A stretch of DNA of 64,000 bases, from the NCBI GenBank assembly GCA_020247305.1, contig JADCJE010000008.1:157016-221015 (forward strand), given 5' to 3'. The position numbers and the translations under genes were made by a program. The DNA comes from Phycisphaerales bacterium. Lineage in GTDB: Bacteria; Planctomycetota; UBA1135; UBA2386. Numbering within the stretch: the stretch's first letter is position 1; the number at the start of each line of letters is the position of its first letter. This document shows, in pieces, positions 24,730 through 38,859 of the stretch. The notes beneath the pieces were generated by a model. It saw nothing but the letters and a program-made list of their open reading frames with translations, was not told the origin of the DNA and ran no database searches.

Positions 24730-25542
24730 TCACTTCTTTCCGCCCTTCGCGGCCATCGCCTTCTGGGCGGCGGCGCGCACGACCAGGCCGGGCTTGAACT
24801 CGACCTTGCGCTCGTTCTTGACCGTCTTCTTGAGGGTCAGGTAGCCGTTGACGTGGCCCGGGACCGCGCCCTTCAGGTAGACGAGGTTGCGCTCGCTGTC
24901 GATCTTGACAACCTCGAGGCGCTGCATCGTCACCTGCTCGACGCCGTAGTGACCGGCCATGCGCTTGCCCTTCGGCACGCCGCTGCTGATCGAGTGCTGG
25001 CGACCGAGGCCACCACCGGTGCGGTGGTTGAGCGAGTTGCCGTGCGACGTCGGCTGGCGGCTGAAGTTGTAGCGCTTGATCGTGCCGGCCCAGCCGCGAC
25101 CCTTGGTCACGCCGGTGACGTCGACGAACTTGACGCCGTCGAGCACGCCGACCTTCACCTCGTCGCCCGGCTTCTGCGCCGGCGCGGCGTCGAGACGGAA
25201 CTCCTTGACGCAGCGCATGGCGTGGTCGAGGCCCGCCTTCTTGTAGTTGCCCATCTCGGCGCCGGTGACCGTGCGCGCCGGCCGCGGGTCGAAGCCCAGC
25301 TGCACGGCGTAGTAGCCGTCGCCGGCCTTGGCGCGCGCGATCTTGCCGCGCTTCTTGCCGAGGTTCTGGTTGACCTGGCGATGGCCCTCGGGGTGCTCGG
25401 CCGCGGTCGCCATCTTGATGGCGAGGACCTTGCAGGGGCCGGCTTGGACGACGGTGACGGGGATGCAGTTGCCGTCGGGATTGAAGATCTGGGTCATCCC
25501 CAGCTTCTTGCCGAGGATTCCGATGGTACGGGTACCGGTCAT
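24730..25542 (-). CDS. rplC: 50S ribosomal protein L3 (long form, ~270 aa)
   Basis: From internal Met MTGTRTIGILGKKLGMTQIF of ORF 24730..25737. Motifs: VDVTGVTKGRGWAGTIKRYNF, SHGNSLNHRTGG, KGKRMAGHYG, YLKGAVPG. It has an internal ~25-aa insertion and a Lys-rich C-terminal tail. Confidence 0.92.
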   Translation of the reverse strand: MTGTRTIGILGKKLGMTQIFNPDGNCIPVTVVQAGPCKVLAIKMATAAEHPEGHRQVNQNLGKKRGKIARAKAGDGYYAVQLGFDPRPARTVTGAEMGNYKKAGLDHAMRCVKEFRLDAAPAQKPGDEVKVGVLDGVKFVDVTGVTKGRGWAGTIKRYNFSRQPTSHGNSLNHRTGGGLGRQHSISSGVPKGKRMAGHYGVEQVTMQRLEVVKIDSERNLVYLKGAVPGHVNGYLTLKKTVKNERKVEFKPGLVVRAAAQKAMAAKGGKK

Positions 25543-25781
25543 GGCGATCGTGCGGATGCGACGCCGCAGGCGGCGTCTGGTCAGGTGCGAAGAGGTCGGC
25601 GTCGGATCGCACGTGGCGCCGGCGCATACATTCGCTGTTTGGGGGCGGGAACGGTACGGACCGTCGCGCGCTGACGCAAGGGTCGGGTATCGCCCGCCCG
25701 CCCCGACCGGCTGGACCAGGACCGCCCCGACACCCACGCGACGGTCGATCGCACGGGCGCAACGACCCCGCCCACCCTAAG

Positions 25782-34053: not shown

Positions 34054-34788
34054 TCAGCCCCGCTGGCGCCGGGACTCGAGCACCAGCGCGTTGGCGTAGA
34101 GGAAGAACCCGCAGAAGCAGGCAAAGTAGACGATGTCGCGCGAGTCGAGGACGCCGCGCGCGATGCTGACGAAGTACTTGTGCGGGCTGAGCCCGCTGAC
34201 GAGGTCGACGAGCCACGCCGGCATCCAGTCCGACGCGTACTCGACGTTCTGGGGATTGCCGAGCTGGTAGAGCACGAACAGCGACACCAGCGAGAGCAAC
34301 ATCGCCACCATCTGGTCGCGCGTCGTGCTCGACCAGAACATGCCGACCGCGACGAAGCTGCTGGCGAACAGCAGCGACGCGAGGTAGCTGCCGAGGACCG
34401 GCGACCAGTCGAGCTTGCCATAGGCGCCGAGCGTCAGCGGCAGGCCGAGCGTCAGCGCCAGCACGCACGCGAGATAGACGACACAGGCGAGGAACTTGCC
34501 GAACACCAGCTGGCCGATGCGCACGGGGAACGTCATCAGCAACTCCAGCGTGCCGAGCTTGCGCTCCTCCGCCCACATGCGCATGGTCAGCCCGGGCAGG
34601 AACAGCACGAGCATCAACGGCAGCGTGGCGAACAGACCCTCCGCGCTGGCGCGCGCGCCGTTCTGCAGTGCACCCTCGCTGACGTAGTAGAGCAGCACCG
34701 ACACCAGCAGGATGCCGAACACGTACGCGATCGGCGACAGGAAGAAGCTGCGCAGCTCGCGCCGGAACACGACGAGGGTCTCACGCAT
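34054..34788 (-). CDS. ABC-2 type transporter permease (GldF-like)
   Basis: MRETLVVFRRELRSFFLSPIAYVF N-terminus and six hydrophobic segments. It overlaps the ATPase gene by 8 nt. Confidence 0.85.
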   Translation of the reverse strand: MRETLVVFRRELRSFFLSPIAYVFGILLVSVLLYYVSEGALQNGARASAEGLFATLPLMLVLFLPGLTMRMWAEERKLGTLELLMTFPVRIGQLVFGKFLACVVYLACVLALTLGLPLTLGAYGKLDWSPVLGSYLASLLFASSFVAVGMFWSSTTRDQMVAMLLSLVSLFVLYQLGNPQNVEYASDWMPAWLVDLVSGLSPHKYFVSIARGVLDSRDIVYFACFCGFFLYANALVLESRRQRG

Positions 34789-35737
34789 GGACGGCCTCCT
34801 GCGCCTTGGCGCCGGTCAGCTTGCGGAAGATGTCCTCCAGCGAAGCGTGCTCGACGGCGAGTTCGAGCAACTGCCAGCCGTGGCGGCAGGCCTGGGCGGC
34901 GACCGCCGCGGGGAACTCGCTCGCCGCGGACGGCAGGCCGAATCGCCACGTGGTGACGCCATTGCCGCCGCCTTCGGCCGCGAGCGGCGCGCCGGGCGGC
35001 AGCAGTTGCAGCAATTGTGCGCGCACCGAGTCGGCCGGACCGCGCACGCGCACACGCAGTGCCGCGCCGCCGTGCGCGGCCGCGATCTGCGCCTGCGTGC
35101 CGTCGGCGACGATGCGGCCCTGGTCGATGATCACGACGCGCGTGCAGGACTTCTCGACTTCCTGCAGGTAGTGCGTGCTGAGGATGACCGTGTGCTCCTT
35201 GCCCAGCTGCTCGATCAGGGTGCGAACCTCGACGATCTGGTTGGGGTCCAGGCCCGAGGTCGGCTCGTCGAGGATCAGCACGGGCGGCTCGTGCACGATC
35301 GCCTGGGCCAGGCCGACGCGCTGCTTGAAGCCCTTGCTGAGCTCGACGATGTTCTTGCCGAGCACGCGCTGCAACACGCAGCGCTCGACCGCGCGGCCGA
35401 TGGCGGCGCGTTGCCGACCGGCCGGGATGCCGCGAATCTCGGCGCAGAAGCGCAGGTACTCGTCGACCCGCATCTCGCCGTAGAGCGGCGTCGTTTCCGG
35501 CAAGTAGCCGATGCAGCGTCGCGCCGCGACGCTGGCGGCGACGACGTCGTGGCCGGCGACCGACGCGCGGCCGGACGTCGGCAGCAGGTAGCCGGTCAGG
35601 ATCTTCATCGTCGTCGACTTCCCGGCGCCGTTGGGGCCGAGGAAGCCGACCACTTCGCCCTTCTGCACCGTGAAGGAGACGCCCTTCAGGGCCCGGGCGA
35701 AGCCGTAGGACTTCGCGAGTTGTTCGACTTCGATCAT
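34781..35737 (-). CDS. ABC transporter ATP-binding protein (GldA-like)
   Basis: From internal Met MIEVEQLAKSYG of ORF 34781..35863. Walker A GPNGAGKST, signature LSKGFKQRV, Walker B LILDEPTSGLD. Confidence 0.93.
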   Translation of the reverse strand: MIEVEQLAKSYGFARALKGVSFTVQKGEVVGFLGPNGAGKSTTMKILTGYLLPTSGRASVAGHDVVAASVAARRCIGYLPETTPLYGEMRVDEYLRFCAEIRGIPAGRQRAAIGRAVERCVLQRVLGKNIVELSKGFKQRVGLAQAIVHEPPVLILDEPTSGLDPNQIVEVRTLIEQLGKEHTVILSTHYLQEVEKSCTRVVIIDQGRIVADGTQAQIAAAHGGAALRVRVRGPADSVRAQLLQLLPPGAPLAAEGGGNGVTTWRFGLPSAASEFPAAVAAQACRHGWQLLELAVEHASLEDIFRKLTGAKAQEAVHA

Positions 35738-35909
35738 GGGACGATGCACGGGGCGCCGCCGCTGGCGACGGCGGCGAGGGGAACGGGCGCGCACCGTCCG
35801 ACGGCCGGCGCGCGGACGCCAGACGGCACAGGGTGGCGCACGACGGACGGGGCGGCAAGACACTCCGTCCGCTGCGCCGCAACGGACTCAATCCTCCTGG
35901 CAGTTCACT

Positions 35910-35965
35910 CAGAGAGCGAGAAACAAGCGGTTTCTCGCTCTCTGCGCGGCCGCGAAGGCGGCCGC
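35910..35965 (-). terminator. two adjacent strong hairpins downstream of rho
   Basis: 35910..35944 is a 15-bp perfect stem (cagagagcgagaaac / gtttctcgctctctg) with loop aagcg. 35946..35965 is gcggccgc-gaag-gcggccgc (8-bp stem). They lie 46-101 nt after the rho stop. There is no U-tract. Confidence 0.4.
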
Positions 35966-36010
35966 CAGCGGCATCCTGAGATGCCCGTAGAATGATGGCT
36001 TCTCGGGCTC

Positions 36011-37552
36011 TCAGTCCTCCAGGCGGAACGAATCGAGGAACTGCTTGTTGCTGTCGGTCTTCATCAGGCGGTCGATCAGCAGCGGCATGGCGTCGAGCGC
36101 GTTCATGCGCGCGAGCACCCGCCGCAGCGTGTAGAGGCGCTTGGTGACGTCCGCGCCGAGGAGCAGCTCCTCCTTGCGCGTGCCGGACAGCTCGATGTCG
36201 ATCGCCGGGAAGATACGGCGCTCGGCGAGCTGGCGATTGAGCACCAGCTCCATGTTGCCGGTGCCCTTGAACTCCTCGAAGATGACCTGATCCATGCGCG
36301 AGCCGGTGTCGACCAGCGTCGTGGCCAGGATCGTCAGCGAGCCGCCCTCTTCGCAGTTGCGGGCCGCGCCGAAGAACTTCTTCGGCACCTCGAGCACCTT
36401 GGCGCCGAGGCCGCCGGACATCGTGCCGCCGCCGCGGCCGCCGAGGAAGCTGTTGTAGGCGCGCGTCAGGCGCGTGATCGAGTCGAGCAGGATGACGACG
36501 TCGCGGCCGGTCTCGACGAGGCGCTGCGCGCGCTTCATCGCCATCTCGCTGACGGCGATGTGGTGCTTGGGGCCTTCGTCGAGCGTCGAGACGAGGACCT
36601 CGCGGTTCGGGCCTTCGACGGTGCGCTTCCAGCCGGTCGCCTCCTCGGGGCGCTCGTCGATCAGCAGCACCATCATGTGGACGTCCGGATAGTGCGTCGA
36701 AAGCGACTGGCAGATCTGCTGCATCAGCACCGTCTTGCCGGAGCGCGGCGGCGCGACCACGAGGCCGCGCTGGCCGTAGCCGAGCGGGCACAGCAGGTCG
36801 ACGATGCGCAGCGAGATGTTCTCGTCGCTGCCCGGCGCCAGCACGAATTGCGGCTCCGGGTCGATGACCGTCATGTCGCGGAACGACTTGAGTTCGCGGC
36901 GCTCCTCCGGCGGCAAGCCGTCGACCGACTCGATCGACGCCAGCGTGAAGCGCTGCGGACCGCGGTTGGGCAGTCCGGCCTGACCGACGATCTCGCTGCC
37001 CTCCAGCAGGCGGTGCTGGCGGATCATCGTCATCGGCACGAACGTGTCGCCGTTGGGGATCGAGTCGGGCTGGTAGCTGTTTTGCTTCTTGCGCAGCCAG
37101 CCGTTGCCCTCCTTGGTGTACTCCAGCACGCCGGTGGCCTGCTCGGTCGGGCCTTCGACCAGCGGCCGGAAGTCGCCGCCGCCGCCCTGGCCACCGCCGC
37201 CGTTGCCGCCGCCACCGTAGCCGCCGCCACCGTAGCCGCCGCCGCCGTTGCCGCCGCCGCCACCACCGTAGCCACCGCCCTGGCCGCCGCCCTGGCCGCC
37301 GCCGCCGCCGAAGTTGCCTTGGCCGACGTCGTACGCGCCGGCTTGGCTGCTGCCACCGCCGAAGCCACCGCCTTGGCCGCCGCCGCCGTAGCCGCCGCCG
37401 CCGCCCTGGCCGCCGCCGCCACCGCCTTGGCCACCGCGCCGCCGCCGGCGACGACGACCGCCGCGCCAACGCCGCCGCTCAGGGCCGCCGTCGCCGCCGC
37501 CACCACCACCTGCGTCGAAGCCGCCGGAGAAATCGCCGTCCGAAATGCTCAT
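36011..37552 (-). CDS. rho: transcription termination factor Rho with Gly/Arg/Tyr-rich low-complexity N-terminus
   Basis: From internal Met MSISDGDF of ORF 36011..38014. It has a CSD-like RNA-binding segment GVLEYTKEGNGWLRK, Walker A APPRSGKT, LLIDERPEE, ILLDSITRL and GTGNMELVL. Residues 1-128 are G/R/Y/Q low complexity. Confidence 0.93.
   Translation of the reverse strand: MSISDGDFSGGFDAGGGGGGDGGPERRRWRGGRRRRRRRGGQGGGGGGQGGGGGYGGGGQGGGFGGGSSQAGAYDVGQGNFGGGGGQGGGQGGGYGGGGGGNGGGGYGGGGYGGGGNGGGGQGGGGDFRPLVEGPTEQATGVLEYTKEGNGWLRKKQNSYQPDSIPNGDTFVPMTMIRQHRLLEGSEIVGQAGLPNRGPQRFTLASIESVDGLPPEERRELKSFRDMTVIDPEPQFVLAPGSDENISLRIVDLLCPLGYGQRGLVVAPPRSGKTVLMQQICQSLSTHYPDVHMMVLLIDERPEEATGWKRTVEGPNREVLVSTLDEGPKHHIAVSEMAMKRAQRLVETGRDVVILLDSITRLTRAYNSFLGGRGGGTMSGGLGAKVLEVPKKFFGAARNCEEGGSLTILATTLVDTGSRMDQVIFEEFKGTGNMELVLNRQLAERRIFPAIDIELSGTRKEELLLGADVTKRLYTLRRVLARMNALDAMPLLIDRLMKTDSNKQFLDSFRLED
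37169..37552 (-). repeat. coding low-complexity tract (GGN/CGN codon runs) encoding the Rho N-terminal Gly/Arg-rich region
   Basis: The plus strand shows long runs of gccgcc/accgcc triplets. Translation includes [16 protein letters not shown] and repeated GGGGY/GGGGQ/GGGGN units. Confidence 0.85.
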
Positions 37553-38196
37553 GCCTTGCGTTCGTCGCCGCGCCGGAGCGCGGCTCCTTCCTGGGGCGAC
37601 GCCGACCATGCGGCGACGCCTGCTGATTGGCGACTGCCAGCGGCGTCGGCCTCCGCGATGGCGGCGGCCGCGTGCACACTGCGTTTCGCCCCTGCATCGT
37701 CCGCCAGTCGCGCCGGAGCCTTCCGGCGCGCGGTTTCCTCGCGGACTTCGGCGCCGGAACCACCCGACACCGAATGCGACGGTTGGCCGTCGCCCACTCG
37801 CAGCTGCCCTGCGGCCGCAGGCGGCGCCGGATCGGCGCATCGCCCGACGGATGCTGTGGCGCGCGCCGGCAACCTGACCAGCGGCGCGGGGCGCGACCCG
37901 GCGCACCGATACATTCGGCGACACCAGATCGGCGGCGAGCGTCGCCAGCGCGCTGTTTCCACCAGCGCCACCAACGACGGCGATGACGCTAACGGCACCC
38001 TCCCACCGGCGCAAGCAGCAGGTGCCCGAATCCGACGCCGCGCCGACCGGACCGCCCGGATCCGCCGTTGCGGGCCGCCGTCACGCACGCTATCCACGGC
38101 AAGGACGCGAACGACGGTCGGGACTCAACTTCCTGGCCGCTGCGCTCCGAAACACGCCTTGGCACCGGCCTTGCCGGCGCCGGACAACGACCACGC

Positions 38197-38859
38197 ATGC
38201 CGAACCCTCTCGACCTGGATCCCCGCCCCCTGCACCTCGGCGACGACGACGACGACGAGCACGACGACCACGAGTGCGACAAGCAAGGCGGCGAGAAGGA
38301 AGCCGCTGGCCCGAATCCGTTCGAGAAGGCGCTGCTGGATTCGCGCACGCTGCTGCTCAGCGGTCCCGTCGACGACAAGATGCTCAAGGAGGCGACCGTC
38401 CGTTGCTTCGCCATGGAGCAGAAGGATGCGAAGAAGCCGATCACGGTGATGATCAACTCGCCGGGCGGCAGCGCCGACGCCGGCTTCGCGATCTACGATC
38501 TGCTGCGCTTCATCAAGCCGCCGGTCGTCACCGTGGTGAACGGCCTCTGCGCGTCGGCCGGCATCCTGATCCACCTCGCCGCGGACAAGAAGCGTCGCTT
38601 CTGCCTCAGCGAGAGCCGCTTCATGATCCACCAGCCTTCGACGATGGGCCGCGGCACCGCCAGCGACCTCGACATCACGGCCAAGGAGATCCTCAAGCTG
38701 CGCGACCGCTACAACCGCATCATCGCGGAGCAGTGCAACAAGACGCTGGAGCAGGTCACCGAGTCGGCGCGCCGCGACTTCTGGCTCGACGCCGGCCAGG
38801 CGCTGGAGTACGGCCTCGTGCACAAGGTCGTCACCCGCCGCGACGAATTGCCGAACTGA
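38197..38859 (+). CDS. clpP: ATP-dependent Clp protease proteolytic subunit (ClpP family) with acidic N-terminal extension
   Basis: From internal Met MPNPLDLDPRP of ORF 38068..38859. Motifs: MINSPGGSADAG, GLCASAG (Ser), FMIHQP (His), RDFWLDA (Asp). The N-terminus contains GDDDDDEHDDHECD. Confidence 0.85.
   Translation: MPNPLDLDPRPLHLGDDDDDEHDDHECDKQGGEKEAAGPNPFEKALLDSRTLLLSGPVDDKMLKEATVRCFAMEQKDAKKPITVMINSPGGSADAGFAIYDLLRFIKPPVVTVVNGLCASAGILIHLAADKKRRFCLSESRFMIHQPSTMGRGTASDLDITAKEILKLRDRYNRIIAEQCNKTLEQVTESARRDFWLDAGQALEYGLVHKVVTRRDELPN

What the first reader, a model, noticed from the sequence alone, without database searches (positions are those of the whole stretch)
36011..37552. Rho factor whose N-terminal helical domain is replaced by a 128-aa Gly/Arg/Tyr/Gln low-complexity region
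The protein aligns by eye with E. coli Rho from the CSD-like RNA-binding segment (GVLEYTKEGNGWLRK versus GVLEILQDGFGFLRS) to the C-terminus. Residues 1-128 have no counterpart to the Rho_N helical bundle. They consist of [16 protein letters not shown] followed by repeated GGGGY, GGGGQ, GGGGN and GGGF units, an RGG/FUS-like composition. Disordered or prion-like insertions in Rho are known in some lineages and have been linked to aggregation or condensate formation. This tract is unusually pure, terminal rather than inserted, and carries a poly-Arg block that could itself bind RNA.
Basis: partly seen in the sequence, partly recalled or inferred. Interest (0 to 1): 0.55.

Follow-up and report, generated by a model that had tools for sequence, protein, structure and literature searches.

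The report
Rho factor with glycine-arginine disordered head
This is a real transcription-termination factor Rho from an uncultured planctomycete that lacks the usual N-terminal helical bundle and instead has a conserved arginine-rich motif followed by a variable polyglycine tract; this architecture is already catalogued as Rho 'subtype 2d', so it is a clean new example, not a new kind of protein.

Summary
Window 36011-37552 (minus strand) encodes a 513-aa Rho. It has a CSD-like RNA-binding domain (residues 140-216) and a RecA-type ATPase, but no Rho_N helix bundle. Residues 1-139 are predicted disordered.

The head is not uniform low complexity. It has four parts:
- an acidic leader (1-25);
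- a nearly invariant motif, R(K/R)[12 protein letters not shown] (26-39);
- a Gly tract (40-124; 72% Gly, with Y/F/Q/N);
- a conserved linker (125-139).

Over 60 distinct orthologues from independent Planctomycetota assemblies keep this module in frame. In the motif, third codon positions vary more than ten times as much as first and second positions, so it is translated. The Gly tract ranges from 18 to 105 aa and is absent in more distant relatives. Near-identical sequences differ by a few Gly.

Rho without Rho_N but with a disordered pre-domain region is already published as subtype 2d / 'Group B' (Moreira et al. 2024), and is common in the PVC group.

The most likely role is an arginine-rich RNA anchor on a flexible tether that substitutes for the basic helix bundle. 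Condensate formation is possible but is not the conserved feature. Whether the genome also encodes a canonical Rho could not be tested.

The parts
36011..37552 (-). rho coding sequence, 513 aa plus TGA stop (36011-36013)
   Evidence: ORF and sequence; Pfam domains; E. coli Rho alignment, E=7e-102; 64-99% identical orthologues named Rho in Planctomycetota MAGs.
37478..37552 (-). Acidic leader, residues 1-25 (MSISDGDFSGGFDAGGGGGGDGGPE; net charge -5), beginning at the conserved ATG
   Evidence: The consensus MSISENDFxGG..PDxGGP(D/E) is conserved in 50 distinct sequences. The ATG is invariant in 35 loci, while the sequence upstream diverges. Codon-position variability over the first 8 codons is 0.07/0.09/0.29.
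37436..37477 (-). Arginine-rich motif, residues 26-39 ([14 protein letters not shown]; 11 Arg and 1 Trp)
   Evidence: R(K/R)[12 protein letters not shown] (in some sublineages RKWRRGG...) is nearly invariant in 61 distinct N-termini. Over 17 codons in 27 distinct DNA sequences, variability at codon positions 1/2/3 is 0.035/0.013/0.377, with mixed CGC/CGT/CGG codons. A (K/R)RWR..RRRRR motif persists in 70-76%-identical relatives that have no Gly tract.
37181..37435 (-). Glycine tract, residues 40-124 (61 of 85 Gly; 5 Y, 2 F, 8 Q, 3 N; units GGGGY/GGGGQ/GGGGN/GGGF)
   Evidence: Composition and codon use, GGC 51 and GGT 10; period-3 tandem array. Length is 18-105 aa among orthologues, median 40. 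Near-identical sequences differ by 1-3 Gly. AF2 pLDDT <50 with no secondary structure.
37136..37180 (-). Conserved linker, residues 125-139 (GGDFRPLVEGPTEQA), joining the tract to the RNA-binding domain
   Evidence: (D)FRPxVEGPTE is conserved across the clade. G134 and E137 are nearly invariant. AF2 confidence rises from residue ~131.
36905..37135 (-). CSD-like (OB-fold) primary RNA-binding domain, residues 140-216
   Evidence: PF07497, E=6e-11. Alignment to E. coli residues 52-130: F64->W152, R66->R154, D78->D169 and Y80->F171 are kept; F62->N150, E108->P199, R109->Q200 and Y110->R201 are changed. R154 and D169 are invariant in the clade, W152 nearly so.
36185..36811 (-). RecA-type ATPase/translocase domain, residues 248-456
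   Evidence: PF00006, E=1.3e-25. The Walker A APPRSGKT, LLIDERPEE, LLDSITRL, FFGAARN, TGSRMD and SGTRKEELL segments align to E. coli Rho and are invariant or nearly invariant in 52 sequences. AF2 pLDDT is 84-97.
37553..38193 (.). Divergent clpP-rho intergenic region, presumed to hold the rho promoter and 5' leader (boundary on the clpP side is approximate)
   Evidence: A ClpP domain is encoded from ~38194 on the + strand. The same clpP / rho / ABC-transporter synteny is seen in L001. No Rfam family, sigma-70-like promoter or terminator-like site was found.

Best explanation
This is a functional Rho of the NHB-less, N-terminally disordered type (Rho Type 2, subtype 2d). It belongs to an uncultured, high-GC Planctomycetota lineage.

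The RNA-binding OB fold and the ATPase motor are intact. In place of the basic three-helix bundle, each protomer carries a translated, selectively maintained head. The head consists of an acidic leader, an invariant Trp-containing arginine-rich motif, and an uncharged polyglycine tether of evolutionarily labile length.

Proposed mechanism (inferred):
- The six arginine-rich motifs per hexamer act as sequence-nonspecific RNA anchors.
- They replace the electrostatic RNA-recruiting role of the helix bundle.
- They help capture structured, G+C-rich nascent transcripts and deliver them to the primary binding sites.
- The Gly tract is mainly a flexible spacer whose length drifts by (GGC)n slippage.
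- In the window's sublineage the spacer has gained Tyr/Phe/Gln/Asn units. These could add self-association or condensate-forming capacity.

Shown: the domain anatomy, absence of the helix bundle, predicted disorder, translation and purifying selection of the leader and arginine motif, and tract-length variability. Inferred: RNA binding by the motif, the tether role, and condensation.
For: Rho identity and intact motor.

No helix bundle: Pfam; NHB profile in 0 of 120 clade members against 101 of 150 outgroup representatives; no hit in the six-frame window or in the loci, apart from the positive control L056.

Head is disordered: AF2 pLDDT <50 and no secondary structure.

Head is translated and constrained:
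- ATG invariant.
- No internal start codon before residue 142.
- Third-position variability is 10-30 times that of first and second positions in the arginine motif.
- The module stays in frame in 61 distinct N-termini from independent assemblies.

The arginine motif is the conserved core. It is retained in relatives that have no Gly tract. Still more distant NHB-less Planctomycetota Rho also start with Arg runs.

The tract is labile: 18-105 aa, with aromatic residues present only in the long versions, and 1-3 Gly differences between near-identical sequences.

Published analogues:
- The E. coli helix bundle is basic and aids RNA loading; deleting its first 27 residues abolishes RNA binding (PMC11347177).
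- The Arg/Gly-rich disordered insertion of M. tuberculosis Rho is needed to engage structured Rut sites in a GC-rich genome: 1759 sites with it against 47 without (PMC13650167).
- phmmer extends the M. tuberculosis Rho alignment (7oqh_A) back to query residue 30, which I read as compositional similarity.
Against: - There is no biochemical or expression evidence for this protein or any orthologue.
- The arginine motif could bind other polyanions (DNA, polyphosphate, membranes) or a protein partner.
- The acidic leader next to it hints at autoinhibition or a specific docking role that the simple anchor model does not explain.
- The primary RNA-binding pocket is itself remodelled (F62N, E108P, Y110R), so RNA recognition may differ more broadly.
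- It is unknown whether this is the cell's only Rho. If a canonical Rho coexists, the helix-bundle function need not be replaced at all.
- One relative (L036) shows a truncated motif, although this may be an assembly collapse.
Confidence: 0.6

Rival explanations
1. The head is primarily a condensate scaffold. Arg (cation) and Tyr/Phe (pi) stickers, separated by Gly spacers on a hexavalent ring, would drive stress-responsive phase separation that tunes Rho activity, as in Bacteroides thetaiotaomicron.
For: In the window protein, 11 Arg plus 7 Tyr/Phe and 11 Gln/Asn lie in a Gly-rich disordered region, multiplied six-fold in a hexamer. Phase separation through an IDR is documented for B. thetaiotaomicron Rho, and a preprint suggests it for mycobacterial Rho. 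Rho additional regions, including 2d regions, are predicted to form droplets.
Against: Aromatic and Q/N residues are not conserved. Orthologues with 18-31-aa tracts have 0 Tyr/Phe and are 81-100% Gly. Relatives at 70-76% identity have no tract at all. Condensation through these stickers therefore cannot be the conserved function of the module. No phase-separation predictor or experiment was run here.
Confidence: 0.2
2. The Gly tract itself has no selected function. It is a neutral by-product of (GGC)n replication slippage next to an Arg-coding CGN run in a 73% G+C genome, tolerated because it is disordered. Only the leader and arginine motif matter.
For: The tract is a period-3 array dominated by GGC. 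Its length ranges from 18 to 105 aa with no conserved internal positions. Near-identical sequences show single-Gly indels. The tract is absent in more distant relatives with an intact core.
Against: A tract of at least 18 aa is present in all 61 orthologues with the full module, and it stays uncharged: 0-3 acidic and almost no basic residues. This suggests selection for a neutral spacer. Within the clade, head length does not track G+C (Spearman -0.07 to -0.17, n=33).
Confidence: 0.3
3. The gene is an accessory 'Group B' paralogue. A canonical Rho with a helix bundle is encoded elsewhere in the genome, and this protein acts as a specialised second terminator or in hetero-hexamers.
For: Published surveys report 30 PVC-group genomes with two rho genes, the second mostly being subtype 2d. 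The NHB-less Planctomycetota sequences form one clade of 37 tips in an NJ tree. Phycisphaerae MAGs encode a Rho_N-containing Rho. Its core is closer to E. coli Rho (58%) than to the NHB-less clade (46-52%), a paralogue-like pattern. The RNA-binding domain has a small insertion while the catalytic residues are kept, as described for Group B.
Against: No second rho is present in the 64-kb window or in the flanks of related loci. No contig length is shared between the two hit lists. The core is under strong constraint, and synteny is stable. NHB-less Rho can be the sole, essential Rho, as in Fusobacterium nucleatum. Co-occurrence in one genome could not be tested with these tools.
Confidence: 0.45
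4. The head is not part of the protein. Either translation starts downstream, or the tract is an assembly artefact.
For: Gene callers start several orthologues at an internal Met at the tract/linker junction (385-387-aa calls). About a dozen public contigs end inside the tract DNA, and a few show frame breaks there. The window has only a weak, closely spaced AAGG upstream of the ATG.
Against: The window has no in-frame ATG/GTG/TTG between codon 1 and GTG142, and GTG142 lies inside the first strand of the OB fold. The 'short' orthologue P0047 has the complete module in frame upstream. The codon-position pattern shows protein-level selection on the leader and arginine motif. More than 60 distinct versions from independent assemblies of lakes, wastewater, soil and marine samples keep the frame.
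Confidence: 0.03

Closest known systems
Rho Type 2, subtype 2d (Moreira, Chyou, Wade & Brown, NAR 2024, PMC11347177); largely equivalent to the 'Group B' Rho of D'Heygere et al. 2013
   Same: [quoted passage not shown] This type is reported as frequent in the PVC group. Arg-rich motifs are noted as likely extra RNA-binding sites. High-GC, large genomes are associated with Type 2.
   Different: [quoted passage not shown] In the text I could read, it does not describe a near-pure polyglycine tract or the conserved MSISENDF...(K/R)[12 protein letters not shown] head. Its dataset was complete RefSeq genomes, whereas this clade is known only from MAGs. Whether this gene is a second copy, as for most Group B members, is untested.
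[quoted passage not shown]
   Same: Both are Arg/Gly-rich and intrinsically disordered, lie next to the primary RNA-binding domain, and occur in high-G+C organisms. The NID is required to engage structured Rut sites (PMC13650167). phmmer extends the 7oqh alignment into the window's Arg/Gly region.
   Different: The actinobacterial NID is inserted between an intact helix bundle and the OB fold. Here there is no helix bundle and the region is terminal. Here Arg is concentrated in one 14-aa block and the rest is uncharged Gly, rather than mixed R/G/D/N.
Bacteroides thetaiotaomicron Rho IDR (Krypotou et al. 2023) and Clostridium botulinum Rho prion domain (Yuan & Hochschild 2017)
   Same: These are lineage-specific disordered regions N-terminal of the Rho RNA-binding domain that confer phase separation or prion-like aggregation and modulate termination.
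   Different: Those regions are inserted after a helix bundle and are E/K- plus Q/N-rich or N-rich. The window's region is 72% Gly with few Q/N, and its aromatic and Q/N content is not conserved among orthologues.
Glycine-rich RNA-binding proteins of plants (for example NtGR-RBP1; RRM plus Gly/Tyr/Arg-rich tail)
   Same: A small RNA-binding fold is joined to a disordered GGYGG-type Gly-rich region containing Arg and Tyr. That region contributes to RNA binding and chaperoning (PMC4117745; title and abstract seen).
   Different: These proteins are unrelated in fold, position (C-terminal tail) and function. The resemblance is compositional only.
Viral arginine-rich motifs (HIV Rev TRQARRNRRRRWRERQR, Tat, lambda N); recalled from my own knowledge
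   Same: A short Arg run with an embedded Trp is a classic structured-RNA-binding peptide.
   Different: No homology is implied. No target RNA is known here. This is a lead from memory, not a test.

Membership tests
Transcription termination factor Rho (functional Rho as defined by Moreira et al. 2024: RNA-binding plus Rho ATPase domains) | CSD-like Rho RNA-binding domain (PF07497) | tested here: met
   PF07497 at residues 140-216, E=6e-11, 42.4 bits against a cut-off of 27. It aligns to E. coli Rho from residue 52 on. AF2 predicts a beta-rich fold with pLDDT 84-97.
Transcription termination factor Rho | RecA-type ATPase with Rho-specific motifs (Walker A/B, catalytic Glu-Arg, Q- and R-loops, Arg finger, bicyclomycin-pocket residues) | tested here: met
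   APPRSGKT, LLIDERPEE, LLDSITRL, TGSRMD and SGTRKEELL align to E. coli Rho and are invariant or nearly invariant across 52 clade members. The R-loop Lys is replaced by Arg.
Transcription termination factor Rho | Hexameric ring with RNA-dependent ATPase and termination activity | not testable with these tools
   This requires biochemistry.
Typical (Type 1) Rho | N-terminal helix bundle (Rho_N, PF07498) | tested here: not met
   No PF07498 hit at E<=0.1 in the called ORF or in the longest ORF. A jackhmmer NHB profile finds it in 0 of 120 clade members but in 101 of 150 outgroup representatives. The six-frame search of the window and of the loci is negative apart from the positive control. AF2 predicts no helices before residue 132.
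Rho Type 2, subtype 2d | No detectable N-terminal domain, but an additional region of more than 25 aa before the RNA-binding domain | tested here: met
   139 residues precede the RNA-binding domain, with no NHB.
Rho Type 2, subtype 2d | The additional region is intrinsically disordered or compositionally biased | tested here: met
   pLDDT <50 for residues 1-30 and 35-126, with no secondary structure. The region is 55% Gly overall. Low AF2 confidence is a proxy for disorder; no dedicated disorder predictor was available.
'Group B' duplicated Rho (D'Heygere 2013; Moreira 2024) | Co-occurs with a complete, helix-bundle-containing 'Group A' rho in the same genome | tested here: inconclusive
   There is no second rho in the window or in related flanks. 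A Rho_N-containing Rho exists in Phycisphaerae MAGs, but no contig is shared between the two hit lists. Whole genomes of the clade could not be scanned.
'Group B' duplicated Rho | Divergent RNA-binding domain with small insertions, and conserved catalytic residues | tested here: met
   There is a 3-residue insertion (QPDSIPNGD against AG-P-DD), and RNP1 GFGF is changed to GNGW. The core is 47% identical to E. coli, whereas the Phycisphaerae Rho_N-type core is 58%.
RGG/RG-motif domain (di-/tri-RGG as defined by Thandapani et al. 2013; recalled from my own knowledge) | Two or more RGG triplets spaced by 0-4 residues, usually several repeats | tested here: not met
   There are only two RGG triplets (WRGG and RRGG), separated by six Arg. 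The 85-aa Gly tract contains no Arg.
FUS-like / prion-like low-complexity domain | S/Y/G/Q (or Q/N)-rich composition with regularly spaced aromatic residues, scored by PLAAC | tested here: inconclusive
   The tract is 72% Gly, 8% Y/F, 13% Q/N and 2% Ser. Aromatic and Q/N content is absent from orthologues with short tracts. PLAAC and FuzDrop were not available.
Actinobacterial / Bacteroidetes Rho N-terminal insertion domain (NID) | Insertion located between the helix bundle and the RNA-binding domain | tested here: not met
   No helix bundle precedes the region; it is N-terminal.

The most novel reading that the evidence does not exclude
The ~40-residue head (acidic leader plus the Trp-containing R(K/R)[12 protein letters not shown] block) is a discrete, previously undescribed functional motif that replaces the Rho helix bundle in a whole Planctomycetota lineage. 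On this reading the polyglycine tether behind it is a slippage-driven 'tuning knob'. Its length (18-105 aa between species, with 1-3-Gly polymorphism among near-identical sequences) and its acquired Tyr/Gln/Asn stickers would set RNA-capture range or condensation. That would adjust genome-wide termination on evolutionary, and possibly population, timescales.
Probability: 0.2. Interest if true: 0.55.

Novelty: new member of a known kind. Interest (0 to 1): 0.3.

Why it matters
It adds a well-defined natural example to the growing picture that Rho's N-terminus is an evolvable, disordered RNA-recruitment and regulation module.

The clade provides three things that could be used experimentally:
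- an invariant arginine-rich motif;
- a ready-made natural series of tether lengths, from 0 to about 105 residues, on an otherwise conserved motor;
- complete loss of the helix bundle.

Together these could be used to test what the helix bundle and the disordered heads actually do in high-G+C bacteria.

There is also a practical point. The tract breaks short-read assemblies and misleads gene callers, so Rho is often truncated or mis-started in Planctomycetota MAG annotations.

Tried and rejected
1. A profile of the 43-column leader-plus-arginine-motif alignment (A2) was searched against 5.8 billion proteins to see whether the head occurs on non-Rho proteins. Nothing reached E<=0.01, not even the Rho orthologues themselves, so the search was uninformative.

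2. The window's exact protein is not on record in the contig index, so the source assembly could not be identified.

3. Finding a second, canonical rho in the same genome:
- Cluster look-ups of helix-bundle-containing representatives gave no usable Planctomycetota names.
- P0130 turned out to come from a 49% G+C metagenome contig.
The question stays open.

4. The supplementary tables of Moreira et al. are not held, and D'Heygere 2013 is not held.

5. A mutational-bias explanation was tested as head length against G+C; there is no correlation.

6. No Rfam family anywhere in the window, and no sigma-70 or terminator consensus near rho.

7. Rejected: a hidden or separately encoded helix bundle; an upstream start at ATG 37609, which is not conserved because L003 has Thr there; and an internal start near residue 128, because no start codon exists there.
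Full report
**Observation**

The feature lies on the minus strand: ATG at 37552, TGA at 36011-36013, 513 codons. Pfam finds Rho_RNA_bind at residues 140-216 and the RecA-type ATP-synt_ab domain at 248-456. It finds no Rho_N, either in this ORF or in the longest possible upstream extension.

phmmer against all PDB chains aligns residues 140-509 to E. coli Rho residues 52-416 (E=7e-102). Nothing corresponds to E. coli residues 1-51.

The pre-domain region is 139 residues long, not 128. It contains 77 Gly, 12 Arg, 5 Tyr, 5 Phe, 9 Gln and 3 Asn, and its DNA is a period-3 array. Among about 30 likely genes in this 68-78% G+C window, only rho has such a tract.

**Anatomy of the head**

Comparison with orthologues shows that the head is not one homogeneous low-complexity region. 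It has four parts:

- Residues 1-25: an acidic leader, consensus MSISENDFxGG..PDxGGP(D/E), net charge -5 here.
- Residues 26-39: [14 protein letters not shown]. The motif R(K/R)[12 protein letters not shown] (in some sublineages RKWRRGG...) is essentially invariant in 61 distinct N-termini.
- Residues 40-124: an uncharged Gly tract. It is 72% Gly and built of GGGGY, GGGGQ, GGGGN and GGGF units.
- Residues 125-139: a conserved linker, (D)FRPxVEGPTE, leading into the OB fold.

AlphaFold2, run with a 52-sequence alignment, gives pLDDT <50 and no secondary structure for residues 1-30 and 35-126. It gives 84-97 for the RNA-binding and ATPase domains. No helical bundle is predicted.

**Is the head real and translated?**

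The best 120 homologues are all from uncultured Planctomycetota. They are 64-99% identical in the core, and none has PF07498.

Fifty-four GTDB species-representative genomes and 31 metagenome contigs carry the gene. These come from lakes, wastewater, soil and marine samples. Wherever the contig reaches far enough upstream, the full module is in frame with the core.

- The ATG is invariant in 35 loci, and sequence conservation collapses immediately upstream of it.
- Across 27 distinct DNA versions of the 17 codons around the arginine motif, variability at codon positions 1, 2 and 3 is 0.035, 0.013 and 0.377. For the first eight codons it is 0.07, 0.09 and 0.29. That is the signature of purifying selection on the protein in this frame.
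- The Arg run uses mixed CGC, CGT and CGG codons.
- The window has no in-frame ATG, GTG or TTG between codon 1 and GTG142, which lies inside the first strand of the OB fold. The upstream ATG at 37609 is not conserved.
- 'Short' database orthologues of 385-387 aa are gene-calling errors. The P0047 locus has MSIDNDYSGG...[19 protein letters not shown]...GGM|DFVPE in frame upstream of the called start.

However, about a dozen contigs do end inside the tract, and a few show frame breaks there. The tract is genuinely hard to assemble.

**What varies**

The Gly tract ranges from 18 to 105 residues, with a median of 40. The window's 85 is near the top of that range.

Tyr and Phe content scales with length, from 0 in the tracts of 31 residues or fewer up to 9 in the longest. 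Short tracts are 81-100% Gly.

Orthologues 96-99% identical in the core have heads of about 105-153 residues. Near-identical sequences differ by 1-3 Gly (P0028-P0033; L057 against L058).

Relatives at 70-76% core identity keep a (K/R)RWR..RRRRR motif but have no Gly tract (P0063, P0065, P0077). Still more distant NHB-less Planctomycetota Rho proteins begin with other Arg runs followed by other low-complexity regions.

Head length does not correlate with G+C within the clade.

So the conserved element is the arginine motif with its leader. The polyglycine is a later, labile expansion, and the Tyr/Gln/Asn 'stickers' are specific to the window's sublineage.

**Evolutionary placement**

An exhaustive HMMER search of 1.84 billion cluster representatives gave nearest representatives only 51-55% identical. 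These also lack the helix bundle.

An NHB profile seeded with E. coli Rho residues 1-50 detects the bundle in 0 of 120 clade members, but in 101 of 150 outgroup representatives. It finds nothing in six-frame translations of the window or of the loci, apart from the positive control.

In an NJ tree of core regions, the window protein sits in a 37-tip clade that is entirely NHB-less (no bootstrap support was computed).

Phycisphaerae MAGs encode a different Rho that has Rho_N preceded by a long initial IDR. Its core is 58% identical to E. coli Rho but only 46-52% identical to the NHB-less clade. The window core is 47% identical to E. coli. This fits either an old paralogous 'Group B' lineage or a fast-evolving orthologue after loss of the bundle.

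**Comparison with what is known**

Moreira et al. (NAR 2024, PMC11347177) already classify this architecture as Type 2, subtype 2d:

- It is defined as Rho without a detectable N-terminal domain but with an additional region of more than 25 aa before the RNA-binding domain.
- 2d regions occur in 7.8% of Rho sequences.
- Initial or 2d regions occur in nearly half of the PVC-group sequences.
- Such regions are predicted to be disordered and droplet-forming.
- 'Group B' second copies in 30 PVC genomes are mostly 2d.

Schumbera et al. surveyed IDRs in Rho from 135 Planctomycetota (PMC10284900).

The window protein meets every defining feature of subtype 2d that I could test. It fails the test for a typical Rho (no helix bundle) and for an actinobacterial-type insertion domain (it is terminal, not inserted). 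It also fails a strict RGG-repeat definition, because it has two RGG triplets six Arg apart and no Arg in the tract.

I did not find the specific combination of the conserved MSISENDF...[13 protein letters not shown] head with near-pure polyglycine described in the texts I could search. I regard it as a new member of a known kind.

**Mechanism**

These points are established by others:

- The E. coli helix bundle is basic and aids RNA loading. Deleting its first 27 residues abolishes RNA binding.
- The Arg/Gly-rich disordered insertion of M. tuberculosis Rho is required to engage structured Rut sites in a GC-rich genome: 1759 sites with it against 47 without (PMC13650167).
- The B. thetaiotaomicron Rho IDR drives phase separation.

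These points are shown here:

- The motor and the 3'-cytosine subsite of the primary binding pocket are conserved (W152, R154 and D169, corresponding to F64, R66 and D78).
- The 5' subsite and RNP1 are remodelled (F62N, E108P, R109Q, Y110R).

My inference is that six arginine-rich motifs per hexamer act as nonspecific RNA anchors that stand in for the basic helix bundle. They would help capture structured G+C-rich transcripts. The Gly tract would be an uncharged flexible tether. The acidic leader next to the Arg block is conserved and unexplained; it may shield or regulate the motif.

Condensate formation through Arg-Tyr contacts is plausible for the window's long aromatic tract. It cannot be the conserved function, because the stickers are absent from many orthologues.

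**Surroundings**

rho is transcribed divergently from clpP (about 38194-38859, + strand). It is followed by an ABC transporter set (ABC_tran, ABC-2 permease, ABC_transp_aux, DUF4340). CheA and an MCP lie further away. The clpP / rho / ABC-transporter order is conserved in L001.

The 641-bp intergenic region has no Rfam hit, sigma-70-like promoter or terminator-like site. Nothing in the neighbourhood bears on the function of the head.

**Open question and verdict**

I could not determine whether the genome also encodes a canonical Rho. This matters for whether 'replaced' is the right word, or 'accessory paralogue' is.

The finding is real and correctly read in outline. It belongs to an already published class, so its interest is modest (0.3). 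Its value is as a clean natural system: an invariant arginine motif, a natural series of tether lengths, and no helix bundle.

Noticed in passing
L002, L006, L008, L016, L030, L031, L033; L059, L065, L066, L071, L075; frame breaks or a truncated motif in L013, L014, L023, L036, L063: About a dozen public contigs of related genomes end inside the (GGC)n Gly-tract DNA of rho, and a few more show frame shifts or a collapsed Arg/Gly segment there. The tract is a recurrent assembly break-point in Planctomycetota MAGs.
   Followed up: partly
P0045, P0047-P0050, P0052 and similar; L001 2700-3045: Gene callers start this rho at an internal Met at the tract/linker junction, giving 385-387-aa 'Rho' entries. 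The DNA upstream encodes the complete leader, arginine motif and Gly tract in frame. Database lengths for this family are therefore unreliable.
   Followed up: yes
P0164 family; P0164 residues ~200-300: Phycisphaerae MAGs carry a Rho_N-containing Rho with a long initial disordered region. That region also contains a Lys/Arg run followed by Gly-rich repeats (..NKKRRRKKKKGGGGMPGMPGMSGG..) upstream of the helix bundle. This is a similar basic-block-plus-Gly theme in a different Rho lineage of the same phylum.
   Followed up: partly
window 37553-38193: A 641-bp divergent clpP-rho intergenic region has no Rfam family, no sigma-70-like promoter and no terminator-like hairpin. Many relatives have a semi-conserved GGGATGCAC just upstream of the rho ATG, whereas the window has only AAGG one base from the ATG. 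A long rho leader could be regulatory, as in E. coli rho autoregulation (recalled from my own knowledge), but this was not tested.
   Followed up: partly
window 34614-37469 (-), 36560-38449 (+), 37030-37509 (-): Very long 'shadow' ORFs overlap rho in other frames and on the opposite strand. They translate to Ala/Arg/Pro-rich strings, and one is 951 aa long. They are by-products of the 72% G+C content and the GGC repeat, not genes.
   Followed up: partly
window 24730-25776 (-): A 348-aa ORF matches Ribosomal_L3 only over residues 216-294 (E=7e-11). This is an unusually partial match that I did not examine.
   Followed up: no
window 36905-37135 (residues 140-216): The primary RNA-binding pocket is partly remodelled relative to E. 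coli: RNP1 GFGF is GNGW, and E108/R109/Y110 are P/Q/R, with R201 nearly invariant in the clade. The cytosine-contacting Arg and Asp are invariant and the stacking aromatic (Trp) nearly so. This suggests altered dinucleotide preference.
   Followed up: partly
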